Origin: Rhizobiaceae bacterium
GTDB taxonomy: Bacteria > Pseudomonadota > Alphaproteobacteria > Rhizobiales > Rhizobiaceae
Length of the DNA stretch: 32,000 nucleotides
Assembly: GCA_963921345.3 (NCBI GenBank)
Contig: OZ001228.1
Location: 670,536 to 702,535, forward strand
Direction: 5' to 3'
Shown piece by piece: positions 12,491-26,455 of this stretch. The position numbers and the translations under genes are program-made. Within the stretch, counting starts at the first letter, position 1. Each line of letters begins with the position of its first letter. A model generated the notes under the pieces. That model worked only from the letters and a program-made list of their open reading frames with translations, had not been told where the DNA came from and searched no databases.

Positions 12491-12530
12491 CATCCGGCTT
12501 CATCCGGGAACTTCCGGCTTCTTCCGGTTT
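12491..12530 (+). repeat. 4 x 10-bp tandem repeat, consensus CWTCCGGNTT
   Basis: CATCCGGCTT CATCCGGGAA CTTCCGGCTT CTTCCGGTTT, read directly from the sequence. One helical turn per unit. Confidence 0.85.
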
Positions 12531-15500
12531 GAGCATTATTTATGTCGTCCTACACTTCCTGCTGGCGGACGATCCAGGTGCCGGCAAGACGATCATGGCC
12601 GGCCTTTTGATGAAGGAACTGATCGCGCGCGGCGATCTAGAACGCTGCCTGATTGTCGCACCGGGCAGCCTGGTCGAACAGTGGCAGGACGAACTCGGCG
12701 AGAAGTTCGCGCTCGAATTCGACATCCTGACGCGCGACATGATCGAGACCGCACGATCCGGCAATGTGTTCAAGGACCGCGACCGCCTGATCGTCCGGCT
12801 CGATGTGCTGGCGCGCAACGAAGAGCTTCAGGACAAACTGCTCGGATCGCCGGAATGGGACCTGATCATCTGCGACGAGGCGCACCGCATGTCGGCGACC
12901 TGGTTCGGCGGCGACGTCAAATACACCAAGCGCTACCAGGTCGGCCAGAAATTGGGGCGGATCTGCCGTCACCTGCTGTTGATGTCGGCAACGCCACACA
13001 ACGGCAAGGAAGAGGACTTCCAGTTGTTCATGGCGCTGCTTGACGGCGACCGGTTCGAGAGTCGTTTCCGCGACGGCGTACACTATGCCGACACCGAAGA
13101 CATGATGCGCCGGCTCACCAAGGAGGAACTGCTGCGCTTCGATGGACGACCGCTGTTTCCCGAGCGGCGCGCCTATACGGTGAAATACGATCTGTCGCCG
13201 AAGGAAGCGGCACTATATGCGGCGGTGACGGATTATGTCCGCACCGAGATGAACCGGGTACAGCGCTTTGCCGCGACAGACGGCAGGAAGCTCAACACGG
13301 TGGGCTTCGCCCTGCAGATCCTGCAGCGGCGCCTCGCCTCTTCGCCTGCTGCCATCCACAGGTCGCTGATGCGCCGGCGCGAGCGCCTTGAGAGCGAACT
13401 CGCCGAAGCGCGGCTCGCCGCAAGGGGCGGCCGGGCCTCGATCAATGCGACCGATGTCGGCGACGACATCCTGCGCAATATCGATGAATATGGCCAGGAG
13501 GATGTCGACGACCTGGAGGAACGGATATCGACCGGCGCGACCACGGCGGAAACGATTGAGCAACTGGCGATCGAGGTCGAGACGCTGAAGTATCTCGAAG
13601 CAGAGGCCCTGGGCGTGCTGGCTTCCGGCGAGGACACGAAATGGCGGCAACTCGACCGCATCCTCGATGACAACCTGATGGTTGATGGCGACGGCAATCG
13701 CCGCAAGCTGATCATCTTCACCGAACCCAAGGACACGCTGCACTATCTGTGCGACAAGGTGCGCGCCCGGCTGGGCAGGCCGGAGGCCGTCGATGTCATT
13801 CATGGCGCGGTGACGCGCGAAGAGCGCCGCAAGGTGATCGAACGCTTCATGCAGGACCGCGACCTGCTGGTGCTGATCGCCAACGATGCCGCCGGCGAAG
13901 GCGTCAACCTGCAGCGCGGCCATCTGATGGTGAACTACGACCTGCCGTGGAACCCGAACAGGATCGAACAGCGCTTCGGACGCATCCACCGGATCGGCCA
14001 GACCGAGGTCTGCCACCTGTGGAACATCGTTGCGGCGGACACGCGCGAAGGCGAGGTCTATGGCCGCCTGCTGGAAAAGCTGGAGGCCGCACGCGCTGCC
14101 CTTGGCGGGCGCGTCTACGATGTGCTCGGCGAGTTGTTCGAAGGTGTCGCGCTGAAGGACCTTCTGATCGAAGCCATCCTCTACGGTGAAAGGGATGAAG
14201 TGCGCGAGCGCCTGTTCCGACAGGTCGACGGCGTGGTCGATCAGACTCACCTGCTCGACCTTCTCAAGCGCCGCGCGCTGACGAATGACACCATGCCGCA
14301 GGCGAAGGTCCGGAAACTGCGCCTCGACATGGAACGGGCGGAAGCGCAGCGGCTTCAGCCGCATCACGTGCAGAGCTTCTTTGTCGAGGCGTTTCAGCGG
14401 CTGGGCGGCCGGTTGAAGGCGCGGGAGGATGGCCGCTGGGAGATCACGCATGTCCCCGTGCGCCTTCGCGAACGCGACCGGCAGATCGGAACCGGTGCTC
14501 CGGTCCAGAAGAAATACGAGCGCATCTGCTTCGACAAGGCCGGGATCAACCGGCAACCGGTCGCGGCCTTCATCTGTCCGGGTCACCCGCTGCTTGAAGC
14601 GGTCATCAGCATCGCGCGCGAAGATCACGGCCACCTGATGAAGCAGGGCGCGGTCATGATCGACGATGCCGACGACAGCATGGCACTGTCGGCCATCTTC
14701 CTCATCGAACACAGCGTGCAGGACGGCTGTCGTACCGGCGCAGACAGGCCGCACATTGTTTCGCAAAGGCTGCAATTCGCGGCGATTGCTGAAACCGGTG
14801 TGACGACCGATGCCGGGATCGCGCCGCACCTCAACCTGCGTCCGGCCGATGCGGACGAGATCGCACACGCCGAAGACCTGCTCGATCAGGACTGGCTGAC
14901 GTCCGACCTGGAAAAACCCGCGCTGGAATTCGCGACCGTGGAATTGGCGCAGCGGCATGTTGCGGAGGTGAAGGCACGGCGCCTTCCCGAGATCGACAAG
15001 GTCGCGGCCGAGGTCAAGGCGCGGCTTGGCAGGGAAATCAATCACTGGGACAAACGCGCCGCCGAGCTTCGGGAAGAGGAAAAGGCCGGCAAGAAGACCC
15101 GCCTCAACTGGCAGAACGCCGAGCGCCGTGCCGAGGAACTTGCCGAACGGCTGAAGCGCCGGCAGGCACAGCTTGACGCGGAACGGCTGATCACCGCGCA
15201 ACCGCCCCGTGTGCGCGGCGGTATGGTCGTCATTCCGCGCGGCCTGCTCGAAGAACGTCGTGGCGATGCGGTGAAAGACGGCATGGCACCGCCGGGATTT
15301 GCCGAAGACCCGGAAGCGCGCAGCAGGGTAGAGGTCGCCGCCATGGATGCTGTGATGGAGGCGGAAAAGGCGCTAGGCAACCATCCGGAAGATGTTTCGG
15401 CGCAGAAGGTCGGCTATGACATCGCCTCCTTCGATCCGACGGCTGACCGCATGCGGTTCATCGAAGTCAAGGGCCGGGTCGAAGGGGCGGATACGGTGAT

Positions 15501-15699
15501 GATCACGCGCCAGGAGGTCATCACCTCGCTGCACGAACCCGACCGGTTCATCCTCGCCATCGTGAGTGTAAAGGACAGTTTTGCGCATGCCCCGCGCTAT
15601 GTGCGCGGACCGCTCGTGGAGCGCGAGCCGTCGTTTTTGGAGACCGCGATACAATTCAGCCTGAAACGCCTGCTGGAGCGGGCGGAGGAGCCGGAATGA
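12529..15699 (+). CDS. SNF2/DEAH-type helicase with C-terminal DUF3883 domain, apparently 5'-truncated
   Basis: Walker A DDPGAGKT sits about 15 codons from the TTG start. DEAH (ICDEAHRM), SATPHNG, helicase-C motifs ANDAAGEGVNLQ and QRFGRIHRIGQ. C-terminal GYDIASFDPTADRMRFIEVKGR...RFILAIV is the DUF3883 signature. No ATG or SD at the 5' end, and the upstream frame is unrelated. Confidence 0.8.
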   Translation: MSIIYVVLHFLLADDPGAGKTIMAGLLMKELIARGDLERCLIVAPGSLVEQWQDELGEKFALEFDILTRDMIETARSGNVFKDRDRLIVRLDVLARNEELQDKLLGSPEWDLIICDEAHRMSATWFGGDVKYTKRYQVGQKLGRICRHLLLMSATPHNGKEEDFQLFMALLDGDRFESRFRDGVHYADTEDMMRRLTKEELLRFDGRPLFPERRAYTVKYDLSPKEAALYAAVTDYVRTEMNRVQRFAATDGRKLNTVGFALQILQRRLASSPAAIHRSLMRRRERLESELAEARLAARGGRASINATDVGDDILRNIDEYGQEDVDDLEERISTGATTAETIEQLAIEVETLKYLEAEALGVLASGEDTKWRQLDRILDDNLMVDGDGNRRKLIIFTEPKDTLHYLCDKVRARLGRPEAVDVIHGAVTREERRKVIERFMQDRDLLVLIANDAAGEGVNLQRGHLMVNYDLPWNPNRIEQRFGRIHRIGQTEVCHLWNIVAADTREGEVYGRLLEKLEAARAALGGRVYDVLGELFEGVALKDLLIEAILYGERDEVRERLFRQVDGVVDQTHLLDLLKRRALTNDTMPQAKVRKLRLDMERAEAQRLQPHHVQSFFVEAFQRLGGRLKAREDGRWEITHVPVRLRERDRQIGTGAPVQKKYERICFDKAGINRQPVAAFICPGHPLLEAVISIAREDHGHLMKQGAVMIDDADDSMALSAIFLIEHSVQDGCRTGADRPHIVSQRLQFAAIAETGVTTDAGIAPHLNLRPADADEIAHAEDLLDQDWLTSDLEKPALEFATVELAQRHVAEVKARRLPEIDKVAAEVKARLGREINHWDKRAAELREEEKAGKKTRLNWQNAERRAEELAERLKRRQAQLDAERLITAQPPRVRGGMVVIPRGLLEERRGDAVKDGMAPPGFAEDPEARSRVEVAAMDAVMEAEKALGNHPEDVSAQKVGYDIASFDPTADRMRFIEVKGRVEGADTVMITRQEVITSLHEPDRFILAIVSVKDSFAHAPRYVRGPLVEREPSFLETAIQFSLKRLLERAEEPE
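12542..12554 (+). repeat. TG..CA-type terminal inverted-repeat-like sequence (ATGTCGTCCTACA)
   Basis: Its reverse complement TGTAGGACGACAT matches 11/13 the left terminus TGTAGGGCGACAG of the IS21-family element at 27640. It lies exactly where helicase homology begins. Confidence 0.45.
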
Positions 15700-17176: not shown

Positions 17177-17629
17177 ATGAAAACTGTGAGGCAGGAGTTC
17201 AACAAATGCTGCCTCGTAACAAATTGCAGAAGAGACGGCTGCTCCGTCGATCTCAGAGGGATTGCTCATCCTTACCTACTTGTTGATTTCGACAGTCGTT
17301 GTGCTCCTTTCAAGCAGCATGAAACACGCTGTGACTACCTGTTGATTGGGGAAGGCAATCCCGCGCTGGTGGTGCCTATTGAACTGACTCGGGGCCGAAA
17401 AAAACAAAATATCTTGGTTCGGCAATTACAGGCTGGTGCCGAAGCGGCAGAAAGTGTTCTGCCTGACAATTTGGCCGTGCAATTTCAGCCCGTTCTTGTG
17501 GGTAAGTCAAAAAAATACAACCTGTCCAGCGGGAGAGAGCCGACAGTCAGCTTTCGAGGCAAGTCGGAGGGCATCTTAAAGATCGATTGCGGCGGCGTGC
17601 TGAAAGATGCATTGAGGAAAGCGAAATGA
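17177..17629 (+). CDS. hypothetical 150-aa protein; Cys cluster plus a weak nuclease-like D...ExT/R motif
   Basis: ATG 17177 (residue 6 of ORF 17162..17629) with AAAGG 8 nt upstream. CCLVTNCRRDGC near the N-terminus. CDYLLIGEGNPALVVPIELTRGRKK (D at 17333, E at 17381). Stop overlaps the methyltransferase ATG. AT-rich like the preceding ATPase gene. Confidence 0.6.
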   Translation: MKTVRQEFNKCCLVTNCRRDGCSVDLRGIAHPYLLVDFDSRCAPFKQHETRCDYLLIGEGNPALVVPIELTRGRKKQNILVRQLQAGAEAAESVLPDNLAVQFQPVLVGKSKKYNLSSGREPTVSFRGKSEGILKIDCGGVLKDALRKAK

Positions 17630-20550
17630 CGCATAGCCGCAAGAAAAAGCTGATCGAAGTCGCGATACCGCTGGATGTCATCAACGCTGCATCGGCGCGT
17701 GAGAAGTCGATTCGTCACGGGCATCCCTCGACGCTGCATCTGTGGTGGGCGCGTCGGCCATTGGCGGCTTGCCGGGCGGTGCTGTTCGCGCAGCTTGTCG
17801 ATGATCCTTCGGAGCATGTCGAGGACCTGCTCGGCGATCCCGATCTTCGGAAAGCGGCCGAAAAGGAACTGGCCGAAAGACTGGAGAAGCGCGGGAAGGA
17901 AAAGCAAGACGGTAGCGTCAATGCGGCGGATGACAGGCCGGTGACGCTGGAGGATGTGATCGTTGAACGCGAACGCCGACGCCTGTTCGCGATCATCGGG
18001 GATCTGGTGCGGTGGGAGAACTCGACGAACGAAGAAGTGCTTGAGCGCGCCCGAGCCGAAATCCGTCGAAGCTGCGGTGGCGAAATGCCGCCGGTCTACG
18101 ATCCATTCTCCGGCGGCGGGTCGATTCCACTGGAAGCGCAGCGCTTCGGACTGCCTGCTTTTGGCTCCGATCTCAATCCGGTGGCGGTGATGATCGGCAA
18201 GGCGATGATCGAAATCCCGCCGAAATTCAGGGACCAGCCGCCGGTGCATACGGACGTACGGGAGCGGCAGTTCTACCGCAATGCCGAAGGGCTGGCGGAG
18301 GACGTCAAGCACTATGGCGCGTGGATGCGCGAGCAGGCCTGGTCTCGCATCGGTCACCTCTACCCGGATGTTGAACTGCCGGAGGACGAGGGTGGCGAAG
18401 AGGCGACGGTGATCGCCTGGATCTGGGCGCGCACGGTACCGAGCCCGGACCCGGCTTTTTCGGATGTGCATGTGCCGATTGCCTCCAGCTTCCTGCTGAG
18501 TTCCAAGCCGGGCAAGAAAGGAGCCTGGATTGAACCGGTGGTTGACCGGCAGGCCAGGACGATTGCCTACCGCATCAGACGCGGCGGCACAAAGGACGAG
18601 ATTGCCAAGGTTAGAGAGGGGACCAAGGCCGGGCGCGGTGCGAATTTCCGTTGCCTGATGTCCGGCACGGCGATCACGCCGGATTATGTCAAGAGCAAAG
18701 GCAAGTCCGGACAGATGGGTCAAACGCTCATGGCCATTGTTGCCGAGGGCAAAACTGGCAGGGCCTACGTGGCACCGTCGGTCGAGCATGAGACAATCGC
18801 GTTTTCTGCCGAACCCAAGTGGAAGCCGGACACAAACCTGCCGGATGATCCACGGAATTTCTGGACGGTGGATTACGGCATGAAGACCTTCGGCGATCTT
18901 TTCACCGACCGTCAGTTGGTTGCGTTGAACACGTTCAGCGACTTGGTGCATGATGTGCGGGCGCAGGTGGAAGCGGACGCGCGTGAGGCGGGCCTGTCCT
19001 TTGATGACATACCACTGCGTGACGGCGGCAGCGGCGCAAAGGCCTACGCCGAGGCGGTGAGCGTGTATCTGGGGTTTGCGATTACCCGTCTGGCAGACCG
19101 CGGCAGCACTATTTGCGGCTGGGATTCTGGATATACGAAGATTCGCAACACATTTGGACGCCAAGCCATCCCCATGACCTGGGATTTTGCAGAAGGCAAT
19201 CCATTTTCAGATTCAACAGGCAATTGGAAATCATGTGTTGCTTGGATTTGGAAGGTTTTGGACGCGCTGGTTCCAGTTGGTTCTGGAAACGAGCGCCAGC
19301 ATGACGCCCAAACGGTCAACTATCCCGCCGATACCGTTATTTCGACCGACCCGCCCTACTACGACAATATCGGCTACGCTGATCTGTCCGATTTCTTCTT
19401 CTGCTGGATGAAGCCAGTCATCCGCCCCGTATATCCTGATCTGTTTGGAATATTGGCCGCACCCAAAGCGGAGGAACTGGTCGCCACTCCTTACCGCCAC
19501 GGTGGCAGGGAGGCAGCAGAAGCTTTCTTCCTTGATGGAATGAGCCGTGCCATCGGCAACATGGCGCGGCAGGCCAGCGATTTGTTTCCGGCCACGATCT
19601 ACTACGCCTTCAAGCAGAGCGAGGTCGACCGGGAAGGCATGAGTTCCACGGGATGGGCGACGTTCCTGCAAGCGGTGATCGATGCCGGATTTGCGGTCGT
19701 TGGCACATGGCCGATGCGAACGGAGATGGCAAACCGGATGATTGCGTCAGGCACCAACGCCCTTGCCAACTCCGTCGTCCTCGTCTGCCGCAAGAAGGCG
19801 GCCGATGCCGAGGTGATCACCCGCACCGAGTTCACCCGCGCCCTGAAGCGCGAATTACCGTCGGCGATTGGCGCACTTCGAACGGCCAACATCGCGCCCG
19901 CCGACATGCCGCAATCGGCGATCGGACCGGGCATGGGTATCTTCTCGCGCCACGCGGCCGTGCTGGAATCCGACGACAGCCCGATGCCGATGAAGACCGC
20001 GCTACAGCTCATCAATCACGAACTCGACGCGTTCCTGAACGATGTTCAGGGCGAATTCGATGCCGACACCCGTTTTGCCATCACCTGGTTCGAGCAAAAT
20101 GGCATGACCGCCAGCGATTACGGCACGGCAAACAACCTCGCCACGGCCCGCGGCCTTTCGGTCGAGAGTGTCAAACATGCCGGCATCGTCGAAAGTCGGG
20201 CTGGCAAGGTGCGCATTCTGAAGCGCGACGAATTGCCGGTCGAATGGGACCCGGCGACCGACACGCACCTTGCGGTCTGGAAGTGCTGCCAATACCTCAT
20301 CAGGACACTCGAAAACGATGGCGAACAGGCCACGGCCATGCTCTTGAAGAGGATCGGTGCGGACAAGGCTGATGCCGCCAAGGAACTCGCCTACTGCCTC
20401 TATGATATATGCGCCAACAAACGCGGAGACGCGAATGAAGCGACGTCTTACAACGCGCTGATCGCGGACTGGCCGGAACTGACACGGCAGGCGGCCAGGA
20501 TCCATGAAACCGATCTCGACGGCGACCCGCAGACCGCGATGAATTTGTGA
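17626..20550 (+). CDS. DUF1156-domain DNA methyltransferase (gamma-type motif order, DPPY)
   Basis: ATG 17626 overlaps the upstream TGA. The N-terminus KKLIEVAIPLDVINAASAREKSIRHGHPSTLHLWWARRPLAACRAV is the DUF1156 signature. AdoMet motif DPFSGGGS...GSDLNPVAV. Catalytic DPPY at 19348-19359. Confidence 0.85.
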   Translation: MTHSRKKKLIEVAIPLDVINAASAREKSIRHGHPSTLHLWWARRPLAACRAVLFAQLVDDPSEHVEDLLGDPDLRKAAEKELAERLEKRGKEKQDGSVNAADDRPVTLEDVIVERERRRLFAIIGDLVRWENSTNEEVLERARAEIRRSCGGEMPPVYDPFSGGGSIPLEAQRFGLPAFGSDLNPVAVMIGKAMIEIPPKFRDQPPVHTDVRERQFYRNAEGLAEDVKHYGAWMREQAWSRIGHLYPDVELPEDEGGEEATVIAWIWARTVPSPDPAFSDVHVPIASSFLLSSKPGKKGAWIEPVVDRQARTIAYRIRRGGTKDEIAKVREGTKAGRGANFRCLMSGTAITPDYVKSKGKSGQMGQTLMAIVAEGKTGRAYVAPSVEHETIAFSAEPKWKPDTNLPDDPRNFWTVDYGMKTFGDLFTDRQLVALNTFSDLVHDVRAQVEADAREAGLSFDDIPLRDGGSGAKAYAEAVSVYLGFAITRLADRGSTICGWDSGYTKIRNTFGRQAIPMTWDFAEGNPFSDSTGNWKSCVAWIWKVLDALVPVGSGNERQHDAQTVNYPADTVISTDPPYYDNIGYADLSDFFFCWMKPVIRPVYPDLFGILAAPKAEELVATPYRHGGREAAEAFFLDGMSRAIGNMARQASDLFPATIYYAFKQSEVDREGMSSTGWATFLQAVIDAGFAVVGTWPMRTEMANRMIASGTNALANSVVLVCRKKAADAEVITRTEFTRALKRELPSAIGALRTANIAPADMPQSAIGPGMGIFSRHAAVLESDDSPMPMKTALQLINHELDAFLNDVQGEFDADTRFAITWFEQNGMTASDYGTANNLATARGLSVESVKHAGIVESRAGKVRILKRDELPVEWDPATDTHLAVWKCCQYLIRTLENDGEQATAMLLKRIGADKADAAKELAYCLYDICANKRGDANEATSYNALIADWPELTRQAARIHETDLDGDPQTAMNL

Positions 20551-20563
20551 AGGACCGCGACGC

Positions 20564-23500
20564 ATGGCCAAGAGTACACGTCAATATGTCTTCGAGGGGA
20601 TGGAACTTTTGCCGGAAGCGCTCATTGCGTTCGTCGAAAAGCGCCTTGAAAGTGCGGTGAAGGGCCACTGGCAGGTGGAGGTCGCGGAGCGGGTCTCTGG
20701 CCTTCGGGTGACCGGTGGCACCGTTTCCTGGGACCAGCAGGGCTTGCTGAGGGCCATGATGGCGTTCTGGAAAGATTGCTTCGCTGCCGTGCTCGGTCAT
20801 CAGGAACGGTCCCATGTTTCCGAACTGCTCGATGTCAGGAACCGGCTGTCGCACAACGAGACCTTCACCTATGACGACGCGGAACGGGCGCTCGACACGA
20901 TGCGTCGGTTGATGGAGGCGATCAGTGCCGGCGAGACCGCCGCGAAGATTGGCAAGATGCGCGACACGATCCTGCGCACCAAATATGCGGAGTTGCAGCG
21001 CAACGAGGAACGCCGCAAGACAAGACGGCTGAACCTTTCGGTGGAAACGGTTGCGGGTCTGCTGCCGTGGCGCGAGGTGGTGGAACCGCATCAGGATGTT
21101 GCGACCGGCGAGTTCCAGCAGGCCGAATTTGCTGCCGATCTTGGCAAGGTGCATGCGGGCAGCGCACCTTCGGAATATCAGAACCCGCAGGAATTCTTCA
21201 GCCGCACCTATCTGACCGAGGGATTGGGCACACTGCTTGCCGGCGCGGCCAGACGCCTGTCGGGGGCGGGCGGCGATCCTGTTGTTGACCTGCAGACCAA
21301 TTTCGGCGGCGGCAAGACGCACGCGATGCTGGCGCTTTACCATATGGCGGGCGGCACGCCGTCGGGGGATCTGCCCGGCCTCGATCAACTGCTTTCTGAT
21401 CAGGAACTCGAAGTCCCGGAAAAGATCAGCCGGGCTGTGCTCGTCGGCACGGCGCGCGGGCCGCATGACCCGGTCCGTGGCGATGATGGGCACGAGGTCC
21501 GCACGACCTGGGGCGAACTTGCCTGGCAACTCGGCGGCGCGGACGCCTATGGGATGATCTCCGACAATGACGCGAAGGGCATCGCGCCCGGTTCTAACCT
21601 GCTGGAGGCGATCTTCAGGAAATGCTCGCCCTGCCTGATTCTGATCGATGAATGGGTCGCCTATCTGCGGCAGATCTACAAGGTCGACGGCCTTCCGTCC
21701 GGCTCGTTCGACGCCAATCTGTCCTTCGTCCAGTCCCTGACGGAAGCCGTCAAGGCGAGCCCCGGCACGCTGCTCGTCGCCTCGCTGCCCGCCTCGCAGA
21801 TCGAGGTCGGCGGTGAAGGCGGACAGGAAGCACTGGTGCGACTGAAGCAGACGTTCAGCCGTGTGGAATCGTCATGGCGTCCGGCGTCGCAGGAAGAGAG
21901 CTACGAGATCGTCCGCCGCCGGCTGTTCAAGGACATTCCGGGCGACAGGCATCACCACAAGGACAACACGCTGAAGCAGTTCGCGAAGCTCTACCGGGAG
22001 AACGCCAACGATTTTCCGCAGGGCTGTGCGGACGAGGACTACCGGCGCAAGCTGGAAAAAGCCTACCCGATTCATCCAGAACTGTTCGACCAGTTGTACA
22101 CGGGTTGGGGATCGCTGGAGAAATTCCAGCGTACACGTGGCGTGCTGCGGCTGATGGCACAGGTCATTCACGAATTGTGGATGGGCAACGATCCCTCGGT
22201 GATGATCATGCCGGGCGGCGTGGCGGTCGGCTCGGCTAGGGTCGAACCGGAACTGCTGCACTATCTCGACGTGAACTGGCAATCGATCATCGCCGCCGAT
22301 GTCGACGGCGAGGCCGCGACACCCTACAGGATCGACCAGTCCGCCCCGAACCTGAACCGCTATTCGGCGACGAGGCGCGTGGCGCGCGCGGTGTTCATGG
22401 GTTCGGCCCCTACGCACCGGGAACAGAACCGGGGGCTTGACGACAGGCAGATCAACCTCGGCGTCATCCAACCGGGCGAGAAGACCGCCATTTTCGGCGA
22501 CGCTCTGCGCCGTCTGACCAACCAGGCGCGGTTCATGCACAGCGATATGGGGCGCACTTGGTATTCTACATCGCAAAGCCTCAATCGCCTGGCCGCCGAC
22601 CGGGCCGGGCAGATCGAGGAAGCGCTCGTGCTGATGGAAGTCGACAAGGCGTTGAAGACGTATATGGACGGGATCGGCGACCGCGGGCATTTCGATGCGG
22701 TACAGGTGGCACCGTCCTCATCGGCCGACATTCCTGACGAGGGGGGCGGCGTTCGCGCTGTGGTGCTCGGTGTTGCGCACCCCCATTCGGTCCGTGACGG
22801 GTCGGAGGCGCTGGTCGAAGCAAAGGATATCCTGATGCAGCGTGGTGCGACACAACGCGTCTACCGCAATACGCTGGTGTTCCTGGCCGCCGACGCCCGG
22901 CAGGTCGACAACCTCAAGGATGGCGTTCGCTCGGTACTGGCATGGAACGGGATCGTTCGCGACACGGAACGTCTTGACCTGACACAGAGCGGCAGCGCTC
23001 TCGCCAAGCAAAGGGCGCAGGAAGCGGACGAGACGGTCATCACACGTCTTCGCGAATGCTGGTGTTACCTCATCTATCCATATCAGGAGAACGCGCAGGC
23101 GGATGTCGAATGGACATCCGGCAAGGTTTCGACGCAGGATGGCCTGCTACACCGGTCCGGCAAGATGCTGGTGAGCGATAACACGCTGCTGCCGGAACTC
23201 GGTCCCCAGCGTCTCGATCGCGATCTGAAGCGCTATATCTGGAAAGACAAGCCGCACCTTTCGCTGAAGGAGTTATGGGACTATCTCAACCGCTATACCT
23301 ATCTGCCGCGATTGAAAGACCGCGAGGTTCTGGCAAGGGCCGTGCAGGCAGCCGTATCGGGCCTTTTACCCGGCCCGTTCGCCTATGCGCAAATGTGGGA
23401 CGAGGAAACGCAGACCTATTGCGGCCTCATCATCGACAATGCAATCGCCGCGCCTGTCGTGATTGACGACGACAGCGTGATCGTCGCGGCGGAAGTGGCG

Positions 23501-23857
23501 AAGCGCCACCGGCCCGAACCGGTGCCCGAAGGTGCCAATGCGGGGTTTGATGAGGAAGATGGCAAAGGCGGTTACCAATCTGCAACCACAGGCCCGGGCG
23601 ACCCGAAGGCCGGCCAGGAAGAACGCCTGCCGACGCGCTTTACCGGAACGGTGATGATCTCGTCCGAGCGGCCGGCCCGCGACATGAACAAGATCATCGA
23701 GGCGATTATCGACCAGTTGACGATGCTGCCCGGCAGCGAGGTAACCCTGACGCTGGAAATCGACGCGGAAGTTTCCGAAGGGCTCGACCGGTCGAAGGTC
23801 CGTACGCTGATCGAGAATGCTGGCACGCTCGGATTCAACGAAAAGTCGGTGCGGTAA
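20564..23857 (+). CDS. DUF499-type P-loop ATPase with N-terminal Swt1-like HEPN domain
   Basis: RNRLSH (Rx4H) at 20837-20854. Walker A NFGGGKTH (~21301-21324). Walker B LILIDEW. 1097 aa. Starts 13 nt after the methyltransferase stop, with an AAGGA RBS. Confidence 0.8.
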   Translation: MAKSTRQYVFEGMELLPEALIAFVEKRLESAVKGHWQVEVAERVSGLRVTGGTVSWDQQGLLRAMMAFWKDCFAAVLGHQERSHVSELLDVRNRLSHNETFTYDDAERALDTMRRLMEAISAGETAAKIGKMRDTILRTKYAELQRNEERRKTRRLNLSVETVAGLLPWREVVEPHQDVATGEFQQAEFAADLGKVHAGSAPSEYQNPQEFFSRTYLTEGLGTLLAGAARRLSGAGGDPVVDLQTNFGGGKTHAMLALYHMAGGTPSGDLPGLDQLLSDQELEVPEKISRAVLVGTARGPHDPVRGDDGHEVRTTWGELAWQLGGADAYGMISDNDAKGIAPGSNLLEAIFRKCSPCLILIDEWVAYLRQIYKVDGLPSGSFDANLSFVQSLTEAVKASPGTLLVASLPASQIEVGGEGGQEALVRLKQTFSRVESSWRPASQEESYEIVRRRLFKDIPGDRHHHKDNTLKQFAKLYRENANDFPQGCADEDYRRKLEKAYPIHPELFDQLYTGWGSLEKFQRTRGVLRLMAQVIHELWMGNDPSVMIMPGGVAVGSARVEPELLHYLDVNWQSIIAADVDGEAATPYRIDQSAPNLNRYSATRRVARAVFMGSAPTHREQNRGLDDRQINLGVIQPGEKTAIFGDALRRLTNQARFMHSDMGRTWYSTSQSLNRLAADRAGQIEEALVLMEVDKALKTYMDGIGDRGHFDAVQVAPSSSADIPDEGGGVRAVVLGVAHPHSVRDGSEALVEAKDILMQRGATQRVYRNTLVFLAADARQVDNLKDGVRSVLAWNGIVRDTERLDLTQSGSALAKQRAQEADETVITRLRECWCYLIYPYQENAQADVEWTSGKVSTQDGLLHRSGKMLVSDNTLLPELGPQRLDRDLKRYIWKDKPHLSLKELWDYLNRYTYLPRLKDREVLARAVQAAVSGLLPGPFAYAQMWDEETQTYCGLIIDNAIAAPVVIDDDSVIVAAEVAKRHRPEPVPEGANAGFDEEDGKGGYQSATTGPGDPKAGQEERLPTRFTGTVMISSERPARDMNKIIEAIIDQLTMLPGSEVTLTLEIDAEVSEGLDRSKVRTLIENAGTLGFNEKSVR

Positions 23858-23917
23858 GACGCAGAAGTCTACCGGCGTTCAATTTGTGTTGCGACGCTAT
23901 TTGTGGGGTGACTCGAG

Positions 23918-25126
23918 ATGCAGGAATTGCTGACGGACCGTGAACTGGAAGCGCTTTTTCGCGACGGCGAGAGCGACAGGGTCGAGTTCAAGCGCAATGC
24001 GACCAATCTTGACAGGATCAGGCAGGCGGTCTGTGCGTTCGCCAACGATCTTGCCAACAATCGCGCACCCGGTGTGGTGTTTGTCGGCGCGGAGGATGAC
24101 GGCCGCTGCGTCGATCTGGACATCGGCGATGATCTTCTCAGGCGCCTTGCACAGATCAGGGACGATGGCAGCCTGACAGCTTTTCCGGGCATGGAAGTAC
24201 GCAAGGTCGTTCTTTCCGGCTGCAACATGGTGGTTATTGTCGTTCAGCCATCGGACAACCCGCCCGTGCGCTTCAACGGACGAACCTGGATCCGGGTCGG
24301 CCCGCGCCGGGCAATCGCGACGCCGGAAGAAGAAACGCGGCTTGTGGAAAAGCGCCGCTTCGCCAACCTCGCCTTCGACGCAAGGCCGGTGCCCGGCGCA
24401 ACCATAGACGATCTTGATCTGGATCGCTTCCGCTCGGAATACCTGCCGGCCCTTGTTTCCCATGACACCATTGCCCGGAACCGCAGGTCGGAAGCGCAAC
24501 AACTCCTGGCGCTGCGTCTCACCGGCAAGAACGGCGTTCCGACCGCCACGGCCATCCTCATGCTAGGCAAGTCTCCGCAGGATCATTTCCCGGGCGCGCA
24601 TATAGCATGGAGACGGGTGGACGGAACCGATGTGACGGGCGAGACAATCGACGAGAAAGTTCTGACTGGCACGATTGCAGATCAGCTTCGCAGGATCGAC
24701 GACATCATCGATGCAGCCAATGCCCACGGCGTGGAGATGGGCCGGTCGACCCATGCGAGGACCGCCGACTATCCGCTGGAAGCACTCCAGCAGTTGGTAC
24801 GCAATGCGGTGATGCATCGCACCTATGAGGGAACAGCCGCGCCCGTGCGCGTGACCATGTATTCGGATCGGATCGAGATATTGAACCCGGGCGGCCCGTT
24901 CGGGGCCGTGACGCCCGAGACGTTTGGATTGCCCGGCGTCACCGACTATCGCAATCCCACGCTTTCGGAGGCACTGAAGGGTTACGGATTCGTCGAGCGG
25001 TTCGGCCAGGGTTTGGAAATCGCCCGTCGCTCCCTTGAAGCAAACGGCCACGCGGCGCCGGAATTCGACTTCGAGCCACAAGTTGCCCCGGCCTGGACCA
25101 ATGTGACGGTGAGGAGGCATCCATGA
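23918..25126 (+). CDS. AlbA_2/Schlafen-like domain protein with HATPase_c_4-like C-terminal half (COG2865 type)
   Basis: N-terminus ESDRVEFKRNATNLDRIRQAVCAFANDLANNRAPGVVFVGAEDDG is typical of AlbA_2. Later ALQQLVRNAVMHRTYE...IEILNPGG resembles the ATPase-like module of this family. I see no C-terminal HTH. Confidence 0.7.
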   Translation: MQELLTDRELEALFRDGESDRVEFKRNATNLDRIRQAVCAFANDLANNRAPGVVFVGAEDDGRCVDLDIGDDLLRRLAQIRDDGSLTAFPGMEVRKVVLSGCNMVVIVVQPSDNPPVRFNGRTWIRVGPRRAIATPEEETRLVEKRRFANLAFDARPVPGATIDDLDLDRFRSEYLPALVSHDTIARNRRSEAQQLLALRLTGKNGVPTATAILMLGKSPQDHFPGAHIAWRRVDGTDVTGETIDEKVLTGTIADQLRRIDDIIDAANAHGVEMGRSTHARTADYPLEALQQLVRNAVMHRTYEGTAAPVRVTMYSDRIEILNPGGPFGAVTPETFGLPGVTDYRNPTLSEALKGYGFVERFGQGLEIARRSLEANGHAAPEFDFEPQVAPAWTNVTVRRHP

Positions 25127-26133
25127 AAACGATTGCATTCTTCAACAACAAGGGCGGCGTCGGCAAGACATCACTGCTTTATCACCTGGCGCACATGTTC
25201 GCCCTCGAGGGTTTGCGGGTCGTCGCGGCCGATCTTGATCCGCAGTCAAACCTGTCGGGCATGTTCCTTCAGGACCCGCGCATCGAGGACCTATGGTCGG
25301 CCGGGGGATCGGGGACCGTGCACTCCGCCATGCAACCGCTCATCGCCGGAACCGGCGATCTGCTGGAGGTAACCCCCGAGATCATCACCGATCGCCTTGC
25401 CCTGCTTGCGGGCGACCTGGGGCTTTCGGAGGTCGAGGACGAACTCTCGAACCAGTGGCCGCGTTGCCTGAACGGCGAAGAACGCGCTTTTCGGGTGACA
25501 GCGGCATTCGACCGCATGATACGGACCGCAGGCCGGGGTGCGGAAGCCGATATTGCGCTGATCGATGTCGGGCCTAACCTCGGCGCGATCAACCGCTGTG
25601 CGCTTGTTTCGGCGGACCATGTCGTCATTCCGATCGGAGCGGACCTGTTCTCGATCCGGGGCTTGCAGAATGTTGGACCGAAACTGCGGGAATGGCGGCG
25701 TCAATGGGGTCAGCGCCTTGATGCTCAACCGGGGGGACTGAATTTCGAATTGCCACCGGGCGACATGGAACCGATCGGCTATGTCGTATCAAGGTATTCG
25801 TCCTTCGGCCGTGGTGCCGCGAAATCGTTCCAGAGATGGCTGGATCGTGTGCCGCGCGTTTATGCTGAGGGCGTCTTGCAGGATGAAGTCACAACCAGCG
25901 ACATCGCTGCGGACACGAACCGGCTTGCACAACTCAAGGACTATCGGTCGCTGATGCCGATGGCGCAGGAAGCACGCAAACCCATGTTCATGCTCAAGCC
26001 GGCGGATGGGGCGATCGGCGGACACCAGACTGCAGTTCAGGATTGCTACAGAGCCTTCCAGGCACTGGCGGCAAAAATATGCGACCGCATTGCGCTGGAT
26101 CCTATCGACCGGTCTTCAGCATCATCGGGATAG
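25123..26133 (+). CDS. ParA/Soj-superfamily ATPase, long form (336 aa)
   Basis: ATG overlaps the upstream stop (ATGA). Deviant Walker A NNKGGVGKTS, DLDPQSNLS, Walker B-like IALIDVGP. About 100 aa C-terminal extension. No parB-like gene or obvious parS nearby. Confidence 0.75.
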   Translation: MKTIAFFNNKGGVGKTSLLYHLAHMFALEGLRVVAADLDPQSNLSGMFLQDPRIEDLWSAGGSGTVHSAMQPLIAGTGDLLEVTPEIITDRLALLAGDLGLSEVEDELSNQWPRCLNGEERAFRVTAAFDRMIRTAGRGAEADIALIDVGPNLGAINRCALVSADHVVIPIGADLFSIRGLQNVGPKLREWRRQWGQRLDAQPGGLNFELPPGDMEPIGYVVSRYSSFGRGAAKSFQRWLDRVPRVYAEGVLQDEVTTSDIAADTNRLAQLKDYRSLMPMAQEARKPMFMLKPADGAIGGHQTAVQDCYRAFQALAAKICDRIALDPIDRSSASSG

Positions 26134-26455
26134 CGATAATGGCGCGGCAAGCATGGAGACCGGGCGGGGTCGCGATGCAACCGTCATTGGCAACAATCCG
26201 AACAGGCGATGCCCGACCGGCGCTTGCGCCAGACGGTCTCCACAGCCGTCAGCACGACCGTGCTGATTGGCAGTGTGGTGGCGATTTCATCCGGCGACCG
26301 GAACCCGATCAGCGCTGATAACGATAGCTCCCGAGCAAGTGGCAAGATGTATGCTGTCATTGAATAGCCACGATCACAATTGGAGTGTTATCCAACAATT
26401 GATGGGGCGGTAAAAAGTCGATTCCACGGAGCATTGCTGTGCTTTATGATGAGGC

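What the first reader, a model, noticed from the sequence alone, without database searches (positions are those of the whole stretch)
23918..26133. Overlapping AlbA_2/Schlafen-like protein and long ParA-like ATPase: candidate two-gene module
The two genes share an ATGA overlap at 25123 and lie 60 nt downstream of the DUF499 gene. I see no parB, parS-like repeats or replication genes, so a plasmid-partition role is not supported. The ParA-like protein is about 100 aa longer than typical ParA/Soj. Its C-terminal segment (…LAQLKDYRSLMPMAQEARKPMFMLKPADGAIGGHQTAVQDC…) has no function that I recognise. Schlafen/AlbA_2 domains recur in defence contexts. Pairing one with a deviant-Walker-A ATPase is not a named system that I know of. 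It could be an accessory of the upstream operon or an independent immune or addiction module.
Basis: inference. Interest (0 to 1): 0.6.

Follow-up and report, generated by a model that had tools for sequence, protein, structure and literature searches.

The report
Schlafen RNase plus ParA-like ATPase pair
Two overlapping genes, a Schlafen-type RNA-cutting enzyme with its own ATP switch and a dedicated ParA-like ATPase, form a fixed portable pair found across many bacterial phyla; it is most likely a small immune or suicide module, was described by computer analysis in an October 2026 preprint, and has never been tested at the bench.

Summary
ORFs 23918-25126 (402 aa) and 25123-26133 (336 aa) share an ATGA overlap and start 60 nt after the HEPN-DUF499 gene (HmaC) of an Hma defence operon.

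- **Gene 1** is a "Schlatpase": a Schlafen/AlbA_2 nuclease domain with an intact E-x4-E-x-K motif, plus a GHKL (histidine-kinase-type) ATP-binding domain. It has no HTH tail.
- **Gene 2** is a complete ParA fold with all the ATPase motifs. The extra length comes from internal inserts.
- **Linkage runs both ways.** 78 of 80 ParA-type loci (at least 14 phyla) have the Schlafen gene directly upstream. 18 of 18 evaluable Schlafen-type places have the ParA downstream. 59 of 66 pairs keep the 4-nt overlap.
- **Context.** Neighbours are otherwise variable and mostly housekeeping; about 8% of loci sit in Hma systems. The pair was not found in 16 same-genus genomes, and there is no parB, parS or plasmid link.

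The pair matches the "ParA-effector system, Schlafen-histidine-kinase subtype" of Li, Burroughs and Aravind (bioRxiv, 22 Oct 2026). It is therefore already described, but only computationally. Earlier notes of this scan found the same pair on other DNA and called it undescribed.

The parts
20564..23857 (+). Context: HmaC (HEPN_Swt1 + DUF499 ATPase), last core gene of the Hma operon. The pair follows it.
   Evidence: Pfam and PADLOC HmaC, E = 4.5e-286.
23858..23917 (+). 60-nt spacer between HmaC and the Schlafen gene. No promoter-like or terminator-like site was detected.
   Evidence: Sequence; scan.
23918..25126 (+). Gene 1: stand-alone Schlafen-GHKL protein ('Schlatpase', pSlfn-HisKinase class), 402 aa, no C-terminal HTH tail.
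   Evidence: Pfam PF04326 + PF13749. AF2 model pLDDT 90. Foldseek hits to 3lmm, SLFN11/12/13/14/5, the SAMD9 tRNase domain and histidine-kinase catalytic domains.
23969..23992 (+). Schlafen catalytic motif E18-x4-E23-x-K25 (ESDRVEFK).
   Evidence: E18 and E23 are each present in 66 of 67 homologues. K25 is K in 39 and T in 28. The motif is defined in PMC13056530.
24803..25075 (+). GHKL / histidine-kinase-type ATP-binding core: N-box N296..H300-R301, glycine lid G325/G329, YRNP 344-347, G363-x-G365.
   Evidence: All these residues are invariant or nearly so in 46-67 homologues. Pfam HATPase_c_4 covers 308-386.
25113..25126 (+). GGAGG ribosome-binding site inside the end of gene 1, followed by the ATGA stop/start overlap (translational coupling).
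   Evidence: Sequence. The same 4-nt overlap occurs in 59 of 66 homologous pairs.
25123..26133 (+). Gene 2: ParA-like (SIMIBI) ATPase, 336 aa.
   Evidence: Pfam AAA_31/CbiA. AF2 pLDDT 92, pTM 0.91. Foldseek hits to 3pg5, then Soj, ParA and McdA over the full length.
25150..25170 (+). Deviant Walker A K10-GGVGK15-T16, preceded by N8-N9.
   Evidence: Invariant or nearly invariant.
25231..25245 (+). Sensor motif D37-L-D39-P-Q41 (DxD plus Q).
   Evidence: Invariant in 67 of 67. PriB1-type signature according to the preprint.
25375..25512 (+). Insert of about 40 residues relative to Soj, between core strands beta2 and beta3 (residues 85-130). Carries invariant E105, L108, W112, F123, R124. Candidate partner-binding surface.
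   Evidence: HMMER alignment to Soj skips query residues 85-130. Secondary structure; conservation. The partner-surface role is an inference.
25549..25566 (+). Walker B D143-IALI-D148.
   Evidence: D148 invariant.
25924..26046 (+). Conserved basic residues K272, R275, K286.
   Evidence: Model. Full-length Foldseek alignment to Soj and McdA. Residues 281-300 have the second-highest 20-residue-block conservation in the protein, after the Walker A block (residue counts).
26134..26401 (.). Non-coding tail up to the inverted repeat of the IS1182-like element. The 91%-identical relative L084 matches up to 26354.
Evidence: blastn.

Best explanation
The two genes are one autonomous, horizontally mobile conflict module of the 'ParA-effector' type.

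Gene 1 is the effector. Its Schlafen nuclease domain has an intact catalytic motif. By analogy with tested bacterial and human Schlafens it would cut tRNA and shut down translation. Its GHKL ATP-binding domain would drive the oligomerisation needed to assemble the active nuclease, as shown for Schlafen-Argonaute.

Gene 2 is a catalytically complete ParA-type ATPase made in fixed proportion through translational coupling. It is inferred to be the switch or sensor. As an ATP dimer, probably bound to DNA through its conserved C-terminal basic surface, it keeps the Schlafen protein inactive. A disturbance caused by an invader (foreign DNA, loss of the nucleoid, or a phage protein) would release it, giving growth arrest or abortive infection.

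Shown here: domain content, motif conservation, near-obligate two-way linkage, translational coupling, patchy distribution, and absence of partition partners.

Inferred: tRNA as substrate, the direction of control (ParA restrains the RNase), the trigger, and the immune pay-off. In this window the cassette rides at the 3' end of an Hma operon as a guest, not as a working part of it.
For: - **Linkage from the ParA side.** 78 of 80 ParA-type loci from at least 14 phyla have the Schlafen gene directly upstream on the same strand.
- **Linkage from the Schlafen side.** 18 of 18 evaluable Schlafen-type places in a 400-genome Pseudomonadota sample have the ParA downstream.
- **Coupling.** 59 of 66 pairs have the identical 4-nt overlap. 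Distance matrices of the two proteins correlate (Pearson 0.59, Mantel p = 0.001).
- **Effector motifs.** Schlafen E18 and E23 are near-invariant (66 of 67 each), and the window protein has the full E-x4-E-x-K motif. The GHKL N-box and glycine motifs are invariant.
- **Effector fold.** The model matches SLFN11/12/13/14/5, the SAMD9 tRNase domain and histidine-kinase ATP-binding domains.
- **ParA motifs.** Walker A, DxD-Q and Walker B are invariant, and the full ParA fold is predicted.
- **Accessory behaviour.** Not found in 16 same-genus genomes. Neighbours are variable. The pair recurs between or beside Hma genes, a known site for embedded defence genes (bioRxiv 10.1101/2024.01.29.577857).
- **Swappable partner.** A 32%-identical ParA paralogue in a same-family genome is paired with a SIR2_2 protein instead.
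- **Decay pattern.** The Schlafen gene is interrupted by IS elements or truncated while ParA stays intact in several loci (L044, L068/L100, L023, L043, L050). No intact Schlafen gene without ParA was seen.
- **Literature.** The pairing is listed as a ParA-effector system. pSlfn proteins defend through tRNA cleavage. GHKL ATP binding assembles the Schlafen nuclease in SLFN-pAgo. The preprint reports that a ParA-HeH-HEPN relative was recently characterised as an antiphage system in Salmonella.
Against: - No member of this pair has been tested. The Slfn-HisKinase proteins tried in E. coli gave no protection against the phage panel used.
- Immediate neighbours of most homologous pairs are housekeeping genes, not defence genes.
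- Both proteins are evenly and strongly conserved, with no hypervariable sensor surface. The ParA C-terminus is the most conserved region, not 'rapidly evolving' as the preprint proposes for these systems.
- The motif lysine K25 is threonine in 28 of 67 homologues.
- PADLOC and NCBIfam have no model for the pair.
- The decay asymmetry is biased, because the first locus set was chosen by its ParA gene.
- No complex model could be computed.
Confidence: 0.65

Rival explanations
1. A selfish toxin-regulator (addiction-type) cassette with no immune benefit. The Schlafen RNase is a toxin and the ParA-like ATPase its neutraliser, and the pair persists by post-segregational or anti-deletion killing.
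For: - Tight two-gene unit with a 4-nt overlap.
- Solo islets between housekeeping genes.
- IS hits and truncations fall on the Schlafen gene while ParA stays intact, and no intact Schlafen gene lacking ParA was seen.
Against: - Both proteins are large ATP-using enzymes, unlike classical small antitoxins.
- The family is almost absent from plasmids (3 distant hits in 72,556 records) and phages, where addiction modules thrive.
- It recurs embedded in Hma defence loci.
- Related Schlafen and ParA-HeH-HEPN systems do defend.
Confidence: 0.12
2. A working accessory of the upstream Hma operon: a back-up effector controlled by the HmaABC machinery and not an independent system.
For: - Same strand, 60 nt after HmaC, with no detectable promoter or terminator between them.
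- The same Hma-Schlafen-ParA block is kept in a 91%-identical relative.
- In L024, L037, L048 and L071 the pair sits between HmaA and HmaB.
- PMC12839542 reports Schlafen-His-kinase proteins linked to BREX and BREX-related loci in at least 1017 taxa.
Against: - Only about 6-7 of 80 loci have any Hma gene nearby.
- All other loci have unrelated, mostly housekeeping neighbours.
- The position inside Hma loci varies (after HmaC here, between HmaA and HmaB elsewhere). This is the behaviour of guest cassettes.
Confidence: 0.07
3. A non-conflict role: a DNA- or cargo-positioning or partition pair (the AlbA_2 protein as adaptor in place of ParB), or a COG2865-type transcription regulator with an ATPase helper.
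For: - Full ParA fold with intact ATPase motifs and a conserved basic C-terminal surface, as in nucleoid-binding ParA, Soj and McdA.
- AlbA_2/HATPase_c_4 proteins are often annotated as regulators.
- Even conservation and housekeeping neighbours.
Against: - No parB, no parS-like repeats, and no ParB_N on the contig.
- Essentially absent from plasmids and phages.
- Not found in 16 same-genus genomes, and present in only 18 of 400 sampled Pseudomonadota genomes.
- The nuclease motif is conserved, and no HTH domain was detected in gene 1.
- Gene order and partner type differ from every characterised ParA-adaptor pair.
Confidence: 0.06

Closest known systems
ParA-effector systems, histidine kinase-Schlafen subtype (ConB1 assemblage; Li, Burroughs and Aravind, bioRxiv 10.64898/2026.10.19.760177, 22 Oct 2026)
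   Same: - Two-gene unit of a ParA NTPase and a Schlafen RNase fused to a histidine-kinase-type domain.
- Wide and patchy phyletic spread, including cyanobacteria, planctomycetes and myxobacteria.
- Walker A with a leading N and an internal V, and DxD followed by Q.
- A sister arrangement with a Sirtuin effector was found here too.
   Different: - The preprint is purely computational and proposes that a rapidly evolving ParA C-terminal extension intercepts invader DNA. In this subfamily the C-terminus is the most conserved region.
- I could not see the preprint's accession lists or tree, so placement in ConB1 rests on motifs only.
'Schlatpase' supradomain and SLFN-pAgo (RzAgo; Kuzmenko et al., bioRxiv 10.64898/2026.05.29.728809)
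   Same: - PF04326 + PF13749 architecture. PADLOC's pAgo model PDLC02394 aligns to residues 21-384 of gene 1.
- GHKL motifs are conserved.
[quoted passage not shown]
   Different: - There the sensor (the Argonaute core) is fused in the same chain. Here there is no fused sensor and no HTH tail, and a separate ParA-like ATPase is coupled instead.
- That paper reports no conserved gene partner for SLFN-pAgo.
Prokaryotic Schlafen defence proteins (pSlfn; Perez Taboada et al., Nat Microbiol 2026, PMC13056530)
   Same: - E-x4-(E/D)-x-K motif.
- Slfn-HisKinase is the commonest architecture (34%, plus 19% with an added HTH).
- tRNA cleavage and phage defence were shown for RorSlfn5, and defence for EcoSlfn7.
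   Different: - The proteins proven to defend carry Ig-like or DUF262 partner domains. The HisKinase representatives tested gave no defence.
- The main text does not mention a ParA partner.
Classical ParABS / Soj-Spo0J and McdAB positioning systems
   Same: Same fold over the whole length (TM-score normalised to the target 0.77-0.84 for Soj and McdA). All ATPase motifs are present, including the signature lysine K10.
   Different: - No ParB or adaptor with an N-terminal stimulating peptide, and no parS.
- Not on plasmids.
- About 80 extra residues in inserts.
- The partner is a nuclease-ATPase encoded upstream.
Hma system (Type-1 BREX-related) and its embedded guest cassettes (HEC; Payne et al., bioRxiv 10.1101/2024.01.29.577857; PMC12839542)
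   Same: - The pair is attached to an Hma operon here, and lies between HmaA and HmaB in four other loci.
- Schlafen-His-kinase proteins are listed as auxiliary effectors of BREX and BREX-related loci.
   Different: - The pair is not one of HEC-01 to HEC-09 and has no PADLOC model.
- About 90% of its occurrences are outside Hma loci.
PDB 3lmm (DIP2311) and 3pg5 (DIP2308), Corynebacterium diphtheriae structural-genomics proteins of unknown function
   Same: They are the best structural matches of gene 1 and gene 2 respectively (Foldseek E = 7e-20 and 2e-17). 3pg5 shares the beta2-beta3 insert. The two locus tags are three apart in one genome, which suggests a related pair.
   Different: - Only 19-24% identity.
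- DIP2311 is longer (583 aa, with an extra C-terminal part).
- The genes are not adjacent by tag number, and I could not inspect that locus.

Membership tests
ParA clade of SIMIBI NTPases | Deviant Walker A KGGxGK[ST] with signature lysine | tested here: met
   K10-GGVG-K15-T16. K10 in 64 of 67, K15 in 65 of 67, T16 in 67 of 67.
ParA clade of SIMIBI NTPases | DxD sensor motif, Walker B DhhhhD, and the ParA fold | tested here: met
   D37-L-D39 and D143-IALI-D148. D37, D39 and D148 are invariant. The AF2 model matches Soj, ParA and McdA over the full length.
ParA-effector system, Schlafen-HisKinase subtype (bioRxiv 10.64898/2026.10.19.760177) | Conserved two-gene neighbourhood of a ParA gene and a gene for Schlafen RNase + histidine-kinase-type domain | tested here: met
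   78 of 80 and 18 of 18 adjacency. 4-nt overlap in 59 of 66 pairs. Pfam PF04326 + PF13749.
ParA-effector system, Schlafen-HisKinase subtype (bioRxiv 10.64898/2026.10.19.760177) | ParA belongs to the PriB1/ConB1 branch (N at the start of Walker A, V inside Walker A, Q two residues after DxD) | tested here: inconclusive
   The motifs fit (N8/N9, V13, Q41 conserved). No tree against the preprint's reference set could be built.
ParA-effector system, Schlafen-HisKinase subtype (bioRxiv 10.64898/2026.10.19.760177) | Rapidly evolving C-terminal extension of ParA, proposed to intercept invader DNA | tested here: not met
   Residues 281-300 are among the most conserved (mean top-residue frequency 0.84). 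Only residues 241-260 and the last 15 residues vary. This is a proposed property, not a formal criterion.
ParA-effector system, Schlafen-HisKinase subtype (bioRxiv 10.64898/2026.10.19.760177) | Immune (anti-phage or anti-plasmid) function | not testable with these tools
   No experiment exists for any member.
Prokaryotic Schlafen nucleases (pSlfn) / Schlatpase | Schlafen fold with the E-x4-(E/D)-x-K active-site motif | tested here: met
   E18-SDRV-E23-F-K25 in the window protein. E18 and E23 are each present in 66 of 67 homologues; K25 is K in 39 and T in 28. Foldseek hits to SLFN11/12/13/14/5 and SAMD9.
Prokaryotic Schlafen nucleases (pSlfn) / Schlatpase | GHKL (PF13749) ATP-binding domain with N-box and glycine motifs | tested here: met
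   PF13749 E = 3e-17. N296, H300, R301, G325, G363 and G365 are invariant. Histidine-kinase catalytic-domain fold hits.
Prokaryotic Schlafen nucleases (pSlfn) / Schlatpase | ATP-driven oligomerisation and tRNA cleavage | not testable with these tools
   Known only for RzAgo and RorSlfn5.
Plasmid or chromosome partition system (ParABS) | Adjacent parB or other centromere-binding adaptor, and parS repeats | tested here: not met
   No ParB_N on contig C1; the canonical parAB pairs lie on C2 and C3. No repeat array.
Plasmid or chromosome partition system (ParABS) | Occurrence on plasmids, phages or next to replication genes | tested here: not met
   3 of 72,556 plasmid records, all at 32% identity. 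1 phage record at 23% identity. The Vibrio plasmid hit is not that plasmid's own small ParA-plus-partner pair.
Hma system core | Being one of HmaA, HmaB or HmaC, or always co-occurring with them | tested here: not met
   No PADLOC Hma model hits the pair. Hma genes are near the pair in only about 6-7 of 80 loci.

The most novel reading that the evidence does not exclude
The ParA-like ATPase replaces, in trans, the HTH tail that most Schlafen-GHKL proteins carry. It would work as a nucleoid- or DNA-state sensor, so that two ATP switches act in series: the ParA dimer on DNA, then GHKL-driven assembly of the tRNase. Loss or remodelling of host DNA during infection, and not recognition of a variable phage protein, would then trigger tRNA cleavage. 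This would explain why neither protein has a hypervariable surface.
Probability: 0.2. Interest if true: 0.65.

Novelty: already known. Interest (0 to 1): 0.35.

Why it matters
Schlafen-GHKL proteins are the commonest bacterial Schlafens, yet the representatives tested so far did not defend, and how they are switched on is unknown. This pair supplies a dedicated, near-obligate partner for one large subfamily. That gives a concrete two-protein system in which to test how a human-like tRNA-cutting immune effector is controlled, and whether ParA-type ATPases really act in immunity. Structural-genomics homologues of both proteins are already in the PDB. For this genome it is one more guest module in a mosaic defence island.

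Tried and rejected
- **Named-system models.** PADLOC gives only partial hits for gene 1 (a pAgo model and SIR2-PNTD models) and a Walker A-only hit to PDC-M28B for gene 2. NCBIfam has nothing for gene 1 and only sub-threshold ParA/RepA hits for gene 2. No named model fits.
- **Hma-embedded candidates.** The HEC paper does not contain the pair.
- **Apparent natural fusion.** P0108 (PF13749 + ParA, 428 aa) starts at an internal Met of the Schlafen gene and runs into ParA after a frame change. I treat it as a frameshift or gene-call artefact, not as evidence of interaction.
- **Signals and repeats.** Promoter, terminator and repeat scans around the pair showed nothing above shuffled expectation and no parS-like array.
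- **Plasmids and phages.** Searches found only remote relatives.
- **Neighbour clustering.** No third conserved gene emerged. The one recurring housekeeping neighbour, gyrA in three loci, looks like a lineage-specific insertion site.
- **Supplements.** None are held for the two key papers.
- **Limits.** My ORF calling in the loci is crude. The family tallies list only the 25 commonest families, so 'mostly housekeeping' is semi-quantitative.
Full report
**Observation.** The ATG of the second gene overlaps the TGA of the first (ATGA at 25123-25126), and a GGAGG lies five bases upstream of it. The preceding gene ends at 23857, which leaves a 60-nt spacer.

**Setting in the window.** By PADLOC the upstream genes form an Hma system:
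- HmaA, 12529-15699.
- HmaB, a DUF1156 methylase, 17587-20550.
- HmaC, HEPN_Swt1 + DUF499, 20564-23857.
- An ABC-ATPase plus small-gene guest pair lies between HmaA and HmaB.

Downstream lie an IS1182-like and an IS21-like element.

**What the proteins are: gene 1.**
- Pfam gives SLFN_AlbA_2 (residues 18-130) and HATPase_c_4 (308-386).
- An AlphaFold2 model built on 46 homologues is confident (pLDDT 90).
- Its best PDB match is 3lmm (DIP2311 of Corynebacterium diphtheriae). Next come the nuclease domains of SLFN11, 12, 13, 14 and 5, the SAMD9 tRNase domain, and the ATP-binding domains of histidine kinases and PDK4.
- The Schlafen active-site motif defined by Perez Taboada et al. (E-x4-(E/D)-x-K; PMC13056530) is present as E18-SDRV-E23-F-K25.
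- Across 67 homologues E18 and E23 are each present in 66. K25 is replaced by T in 28. D60 is D in 58 and N in 9.
- The GHKL motifs N296, H300, R301, G325, G329, R345, G363 and G365 are invariant or nearly so.
- The protein ends 16 residues after the Pfam GHKL match. It therefore has no room for the C-terminal HTH tail that most such proteins carry.
- This is the stand-alone 'Schlatpase' supradomain of Kuzmenko et al. (bioRxiv 10.64898/2026.05.29.728809). It is also the Slfn-HisKinase class, the commonest architecture among bacterial Schlafens.

**What the proteins are: gene 2.**
- It is a complete ParA-type ATPase: N8-N9-K10-GGVGK15-T16, D37-L-D39-P-Q41, D143-IALI-D148 and N183, all invariant or nearly so.
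- The model is very confident (pLDDT 92, pTM 0.91).
- It aligns over its whole length with 3pg5 (DIP2308 of C. diphtheriae), and then with Soj, ParA and McdA. TM-scores normalised to the target are 0.77-0.84 for Soj and McdA.

**The length and the 'unknown' C-terminus.**
- HMMER aligns Soj to query residues 2-84 and 131-198. About 40 extra residues therefore sit between core strands beta2 and beta3. In the model they form a hairpin plus helices (residues 85-130).
- The rest of the excess lies in loops at about 201-215 and 253-266, and in a disordered tail (323-336).
- This segment is conserved, not divergent. Residues 281-300 have a mean top-residue frequency of 0.84, second only to the Walker A block.
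- It carries conserved basic residues K272, R275 and K286. In nucleoid-binding ParA proteins, the basic residues of this region contact DNA (summary). That these residues do so here is an inference.

**Is the pairing real?**
- A scan of one genome per species with a ParA-family profile returned at least 573 loci, of which 80 were kept. They come from at least 14 phyla: Alpha-, Gamma- and Deltaproteobacteria, Acidobacteriota, Planctomycetota, Cyanobacteria, Chloroflexota, Nitrospirota, Nitrospinota, Latescibacterota, Binatota, Armatimonadota, Actinomycetota and Fusobacteriota.
- In 78 of the 80 a homologue of gene 1 (38-79% identity) lies directly upstream on the same strand.
- Of the two exceptions, one is a lone ParA inside an Hma locus (L047) and the other a lone ParA near a fumarase gene (L079).
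- Among 66 cleanly delimited pairs, 59 have exactly the same 4-nt stop/start overlap.
- To remove the ascertainment bias I searched from the other side. In 400 sampled Pseudomonadota genomes, 18 carry a close homologue of gene 1 (E <= 1e-50). In all 18 evaluable places the ParA gene follows. The two places without it are cut off by contig ends.
- Pairwise distances of the two proteins are correlated (Pearson 0.59, Mantel p = 0.001). Related sequences inflate such a figure.

**Context and mobility.**
- The ParA type was not found in 16 other species of the same genus. Among the 40 sampled relatives (same genus, family and order) the only match was a 32%-identity paralogue in one same-family genome.
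- Neighbours of the pair are not conserved. No neighbour cluster occurs in more than 7 loci.
- Of 70 immediate neighbours, most are housekeeping enzymes such as aminotransferase, GidA, cysteinyl-tRNA synthetase, ribonucleotide reductase and ETF. Only a handful are defence-type.
- Among 44 tightly linked same-strand neighbours there are four DUF1156/HmaB methylases, three HmaA-type helicases and three gyrA genes (probably one lineage-specific site). The rest are housekeeping.
- In L024, L037, L048 and L071 the pair sits between HmaA and HmaB. This is the position where Payne et al. found embedded defence genes.
- A metagenome contig 91% identical to the window over 19345-26354 carries the same Hma-Schlafen-ParA block.
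- The pair is thus a portable cassette. It usually stands alone and sometimes lodges in Hma loci. It is not a constant part of Hma.

**Not a partition system.**
- No ParB_N domain lies on the 830-kb contig. The genome's recognisable parA-parB pairs are on contigs C2 and C3.
- There is no repeat array near the pair.
- Among 72,556 plasmid records only three hold a relative, all at 32% identity. Among 50,697 phage records there is one, at 23% identity.
- The Vibrio plasmid relative is a lone gene beside a type I restriction system. It is separate from that plasmid's small ParA-plus-partner pair.

**What is already known.**
- The exact pairing appears in Li, Burroughs and Aravind (bioRxiv 10.64898/2026.10.19.760177, posted 22 Oct 2026). 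Their 'ParA-effector systems' couple a ParA gene to a variable effector gene. [quoted passage not shown]
- The motif signatures they give for the PriB1/ConB1 branches are a leading N and an internal V in Walker A, and a Q after DxD. All fit gene 2.
- I confirmed the swappable-effector theme independently. The 32%-identity ParA paralogue in a same-family genome overlaps a SIR2_2 gene.
- That work is computational. Its suggested mechanism is that ParA sequesters invader DNA through a rapidly evolving C-terminal extension, and the effector is released if this fails. That does not match the strong conservation of the C-terminus in this subfamily.
- PMC12839542 independently lists Schlafen-His-kinase proteins as auxiliary effectors at BREX and DUF499-type loci in at least 1017 taxa, without mentioning ParA.
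- Earlier notes of this scan found the same pair on other DNA and judged it undescribed. The preprint changes that.

**Most likely mechanism.**
- Shown: an intact Schlafen catalytic motif, an intact GHKL ATP site, an intact ParA ATPase, fixed stoichiometric coupling, near-obligate linkage, and accessory, horizontally spread behaviour.
- From the literature: bacterial Schlafens cut tRNA and defend. In SLFN-pAgo, ATP binding by the same GHKL domain tetramerises the protein and so builds the active nuclease, which stays locked until the fused sensor fires.
- Inferred: here the missing fused sensor or HTH tail is supplied in trans by the ParA-like ATPase. This ATPase, probably as a DNA-bound ATP dimer, holds the Schlafen protein inactive until infection disturbs it. 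tRNA cleavage then arrests translation.
- The enlarged and conserved beta2-beta3 insert coincides with the surface that classical ParA proteins use for their partners. It is my candidate docking site.
- The direction of control (restraint and not activation) is suggested by the decay pattern. IS insertions or truncations hit the Schlafen gene in L044, L068/L100, L023, L043 and L050 while ParA stays intact. No intact Schlafen gene lacking ParA was found. The first locus set was chosen by ParA, so this is weak evidence.

**Cautions.**
- No member of the pair has been tested, and the Slfn-HisKinase proteins tried in E. coli gave no defence.
- Most homologous pairs lie among housekeeping genes.
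- There is no hypervariable surface, and the motif lysine is T in 42% of homologues.
- A pure addiction cassette, an Hma back-up effector, or a non-conflict positioning or regulatory role remain possible. I rate them at about 0.12, 0.07 and 0.06.

**Verdict.** The system is ordinary in the sense that it is a typical member of a pairing already catalogued, though only in silico and only weeks ago. What this analysis adds:
- Quantified two-way linkage.
- The conserved 4-nt coupling.
- An explanation of the extra length and the C-terminus.
- The missing HTH tail.
- Conservation that disagrees with the proposed 'rapidly evolving' sensor.
- The pointer that both proteins have solved homologues from one C. 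diphtheriae locus.

Noticed in passing
L082:618-2532 (- strand), genome G017 of the same family: A 348-aa ParA paralogue (32% identical to gene 2) overlaps a downstream SIR2_2 gene (306 aa) and follows a DUF3363 gene. This is a ParA-Sirtuin pair, another subtype of the ParA-effector theme, with the gene order reversed (ParA first).
   Followed up: partly
L041, L051, L074 (upstream neighbour, gap 6-8 nt): In three proteobacterial MAGs (a Gallionella sp., a Nitrosomonadales bacterium and an unclassified Proteobacteria bacterium) the pair sits immediately downstream of gyrA. This looks like one lineage-specific insertion site.
   Followed up: no
L068:4726-6001 and L100:2592-3867; L044:4121-5543: IS elements are inserted in the Schlafen gene while the ParA gene stays intact. 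In L068 (a Roseateles chromosome) and in the similar L100 the insert is an IS5-like DDE transposase. In L044 it is a transposase with an HTH_32 domain.
   Followed up: partly
L084:1-11340 (ENA metagenome contig, 108 kb): This locus is 91% identical to window 19345-26354. Here the HmaB gene is broken by a DUF4096 transposase-type insertion and the DUF499 gene is called in two pieces. The contig ends 329 nt after ParA.
   Followed up: partly
G000:C7:36199-37626 (L107:2700-4127, - strand) and flanks: A second Schlafen/AlbA_2 protein of this genome (475 aa, no HATPase_c_4 by Pfam, no ParA next to it) lies between an SF1 helicase-PLD nuclease gene (1020 aa) and an odd ORF. That ORF combines an N-terminal HTH with the MutL middle and C-terminal domains but lacks the MutL ATPase.
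   Followed up: partly
Gene 1 residue 25 (window 23990-23992) across homologues: The lysine of the E-x4-E-x-K Schlafen motif is threonine in 28 of 67 members of this ParA-linked subfamily. The two glutamates are each present in 66 of 67.
   Followed up: no
PDB 3lmm (DIP2311) and 3pg5 (DIP2308): The best solved-structure matches of gene 1 and gene 2 are two uncharacterised proteins of the same Corynebacterium diphtheriae strain, with locus tags three apart. They may come from a distant version of the same module.
   Followed up: no
L083 (Vibrio campbellii plasmid p1, 27084-28091): A lone 32%-identical ParA-family gene sits between a recombinase gene and 'mobile mystery protein A/B' genes, next to a type I restriction system. 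It is separate from the plasmid's own small ParA-plus-partner pair.
   Followed up: no
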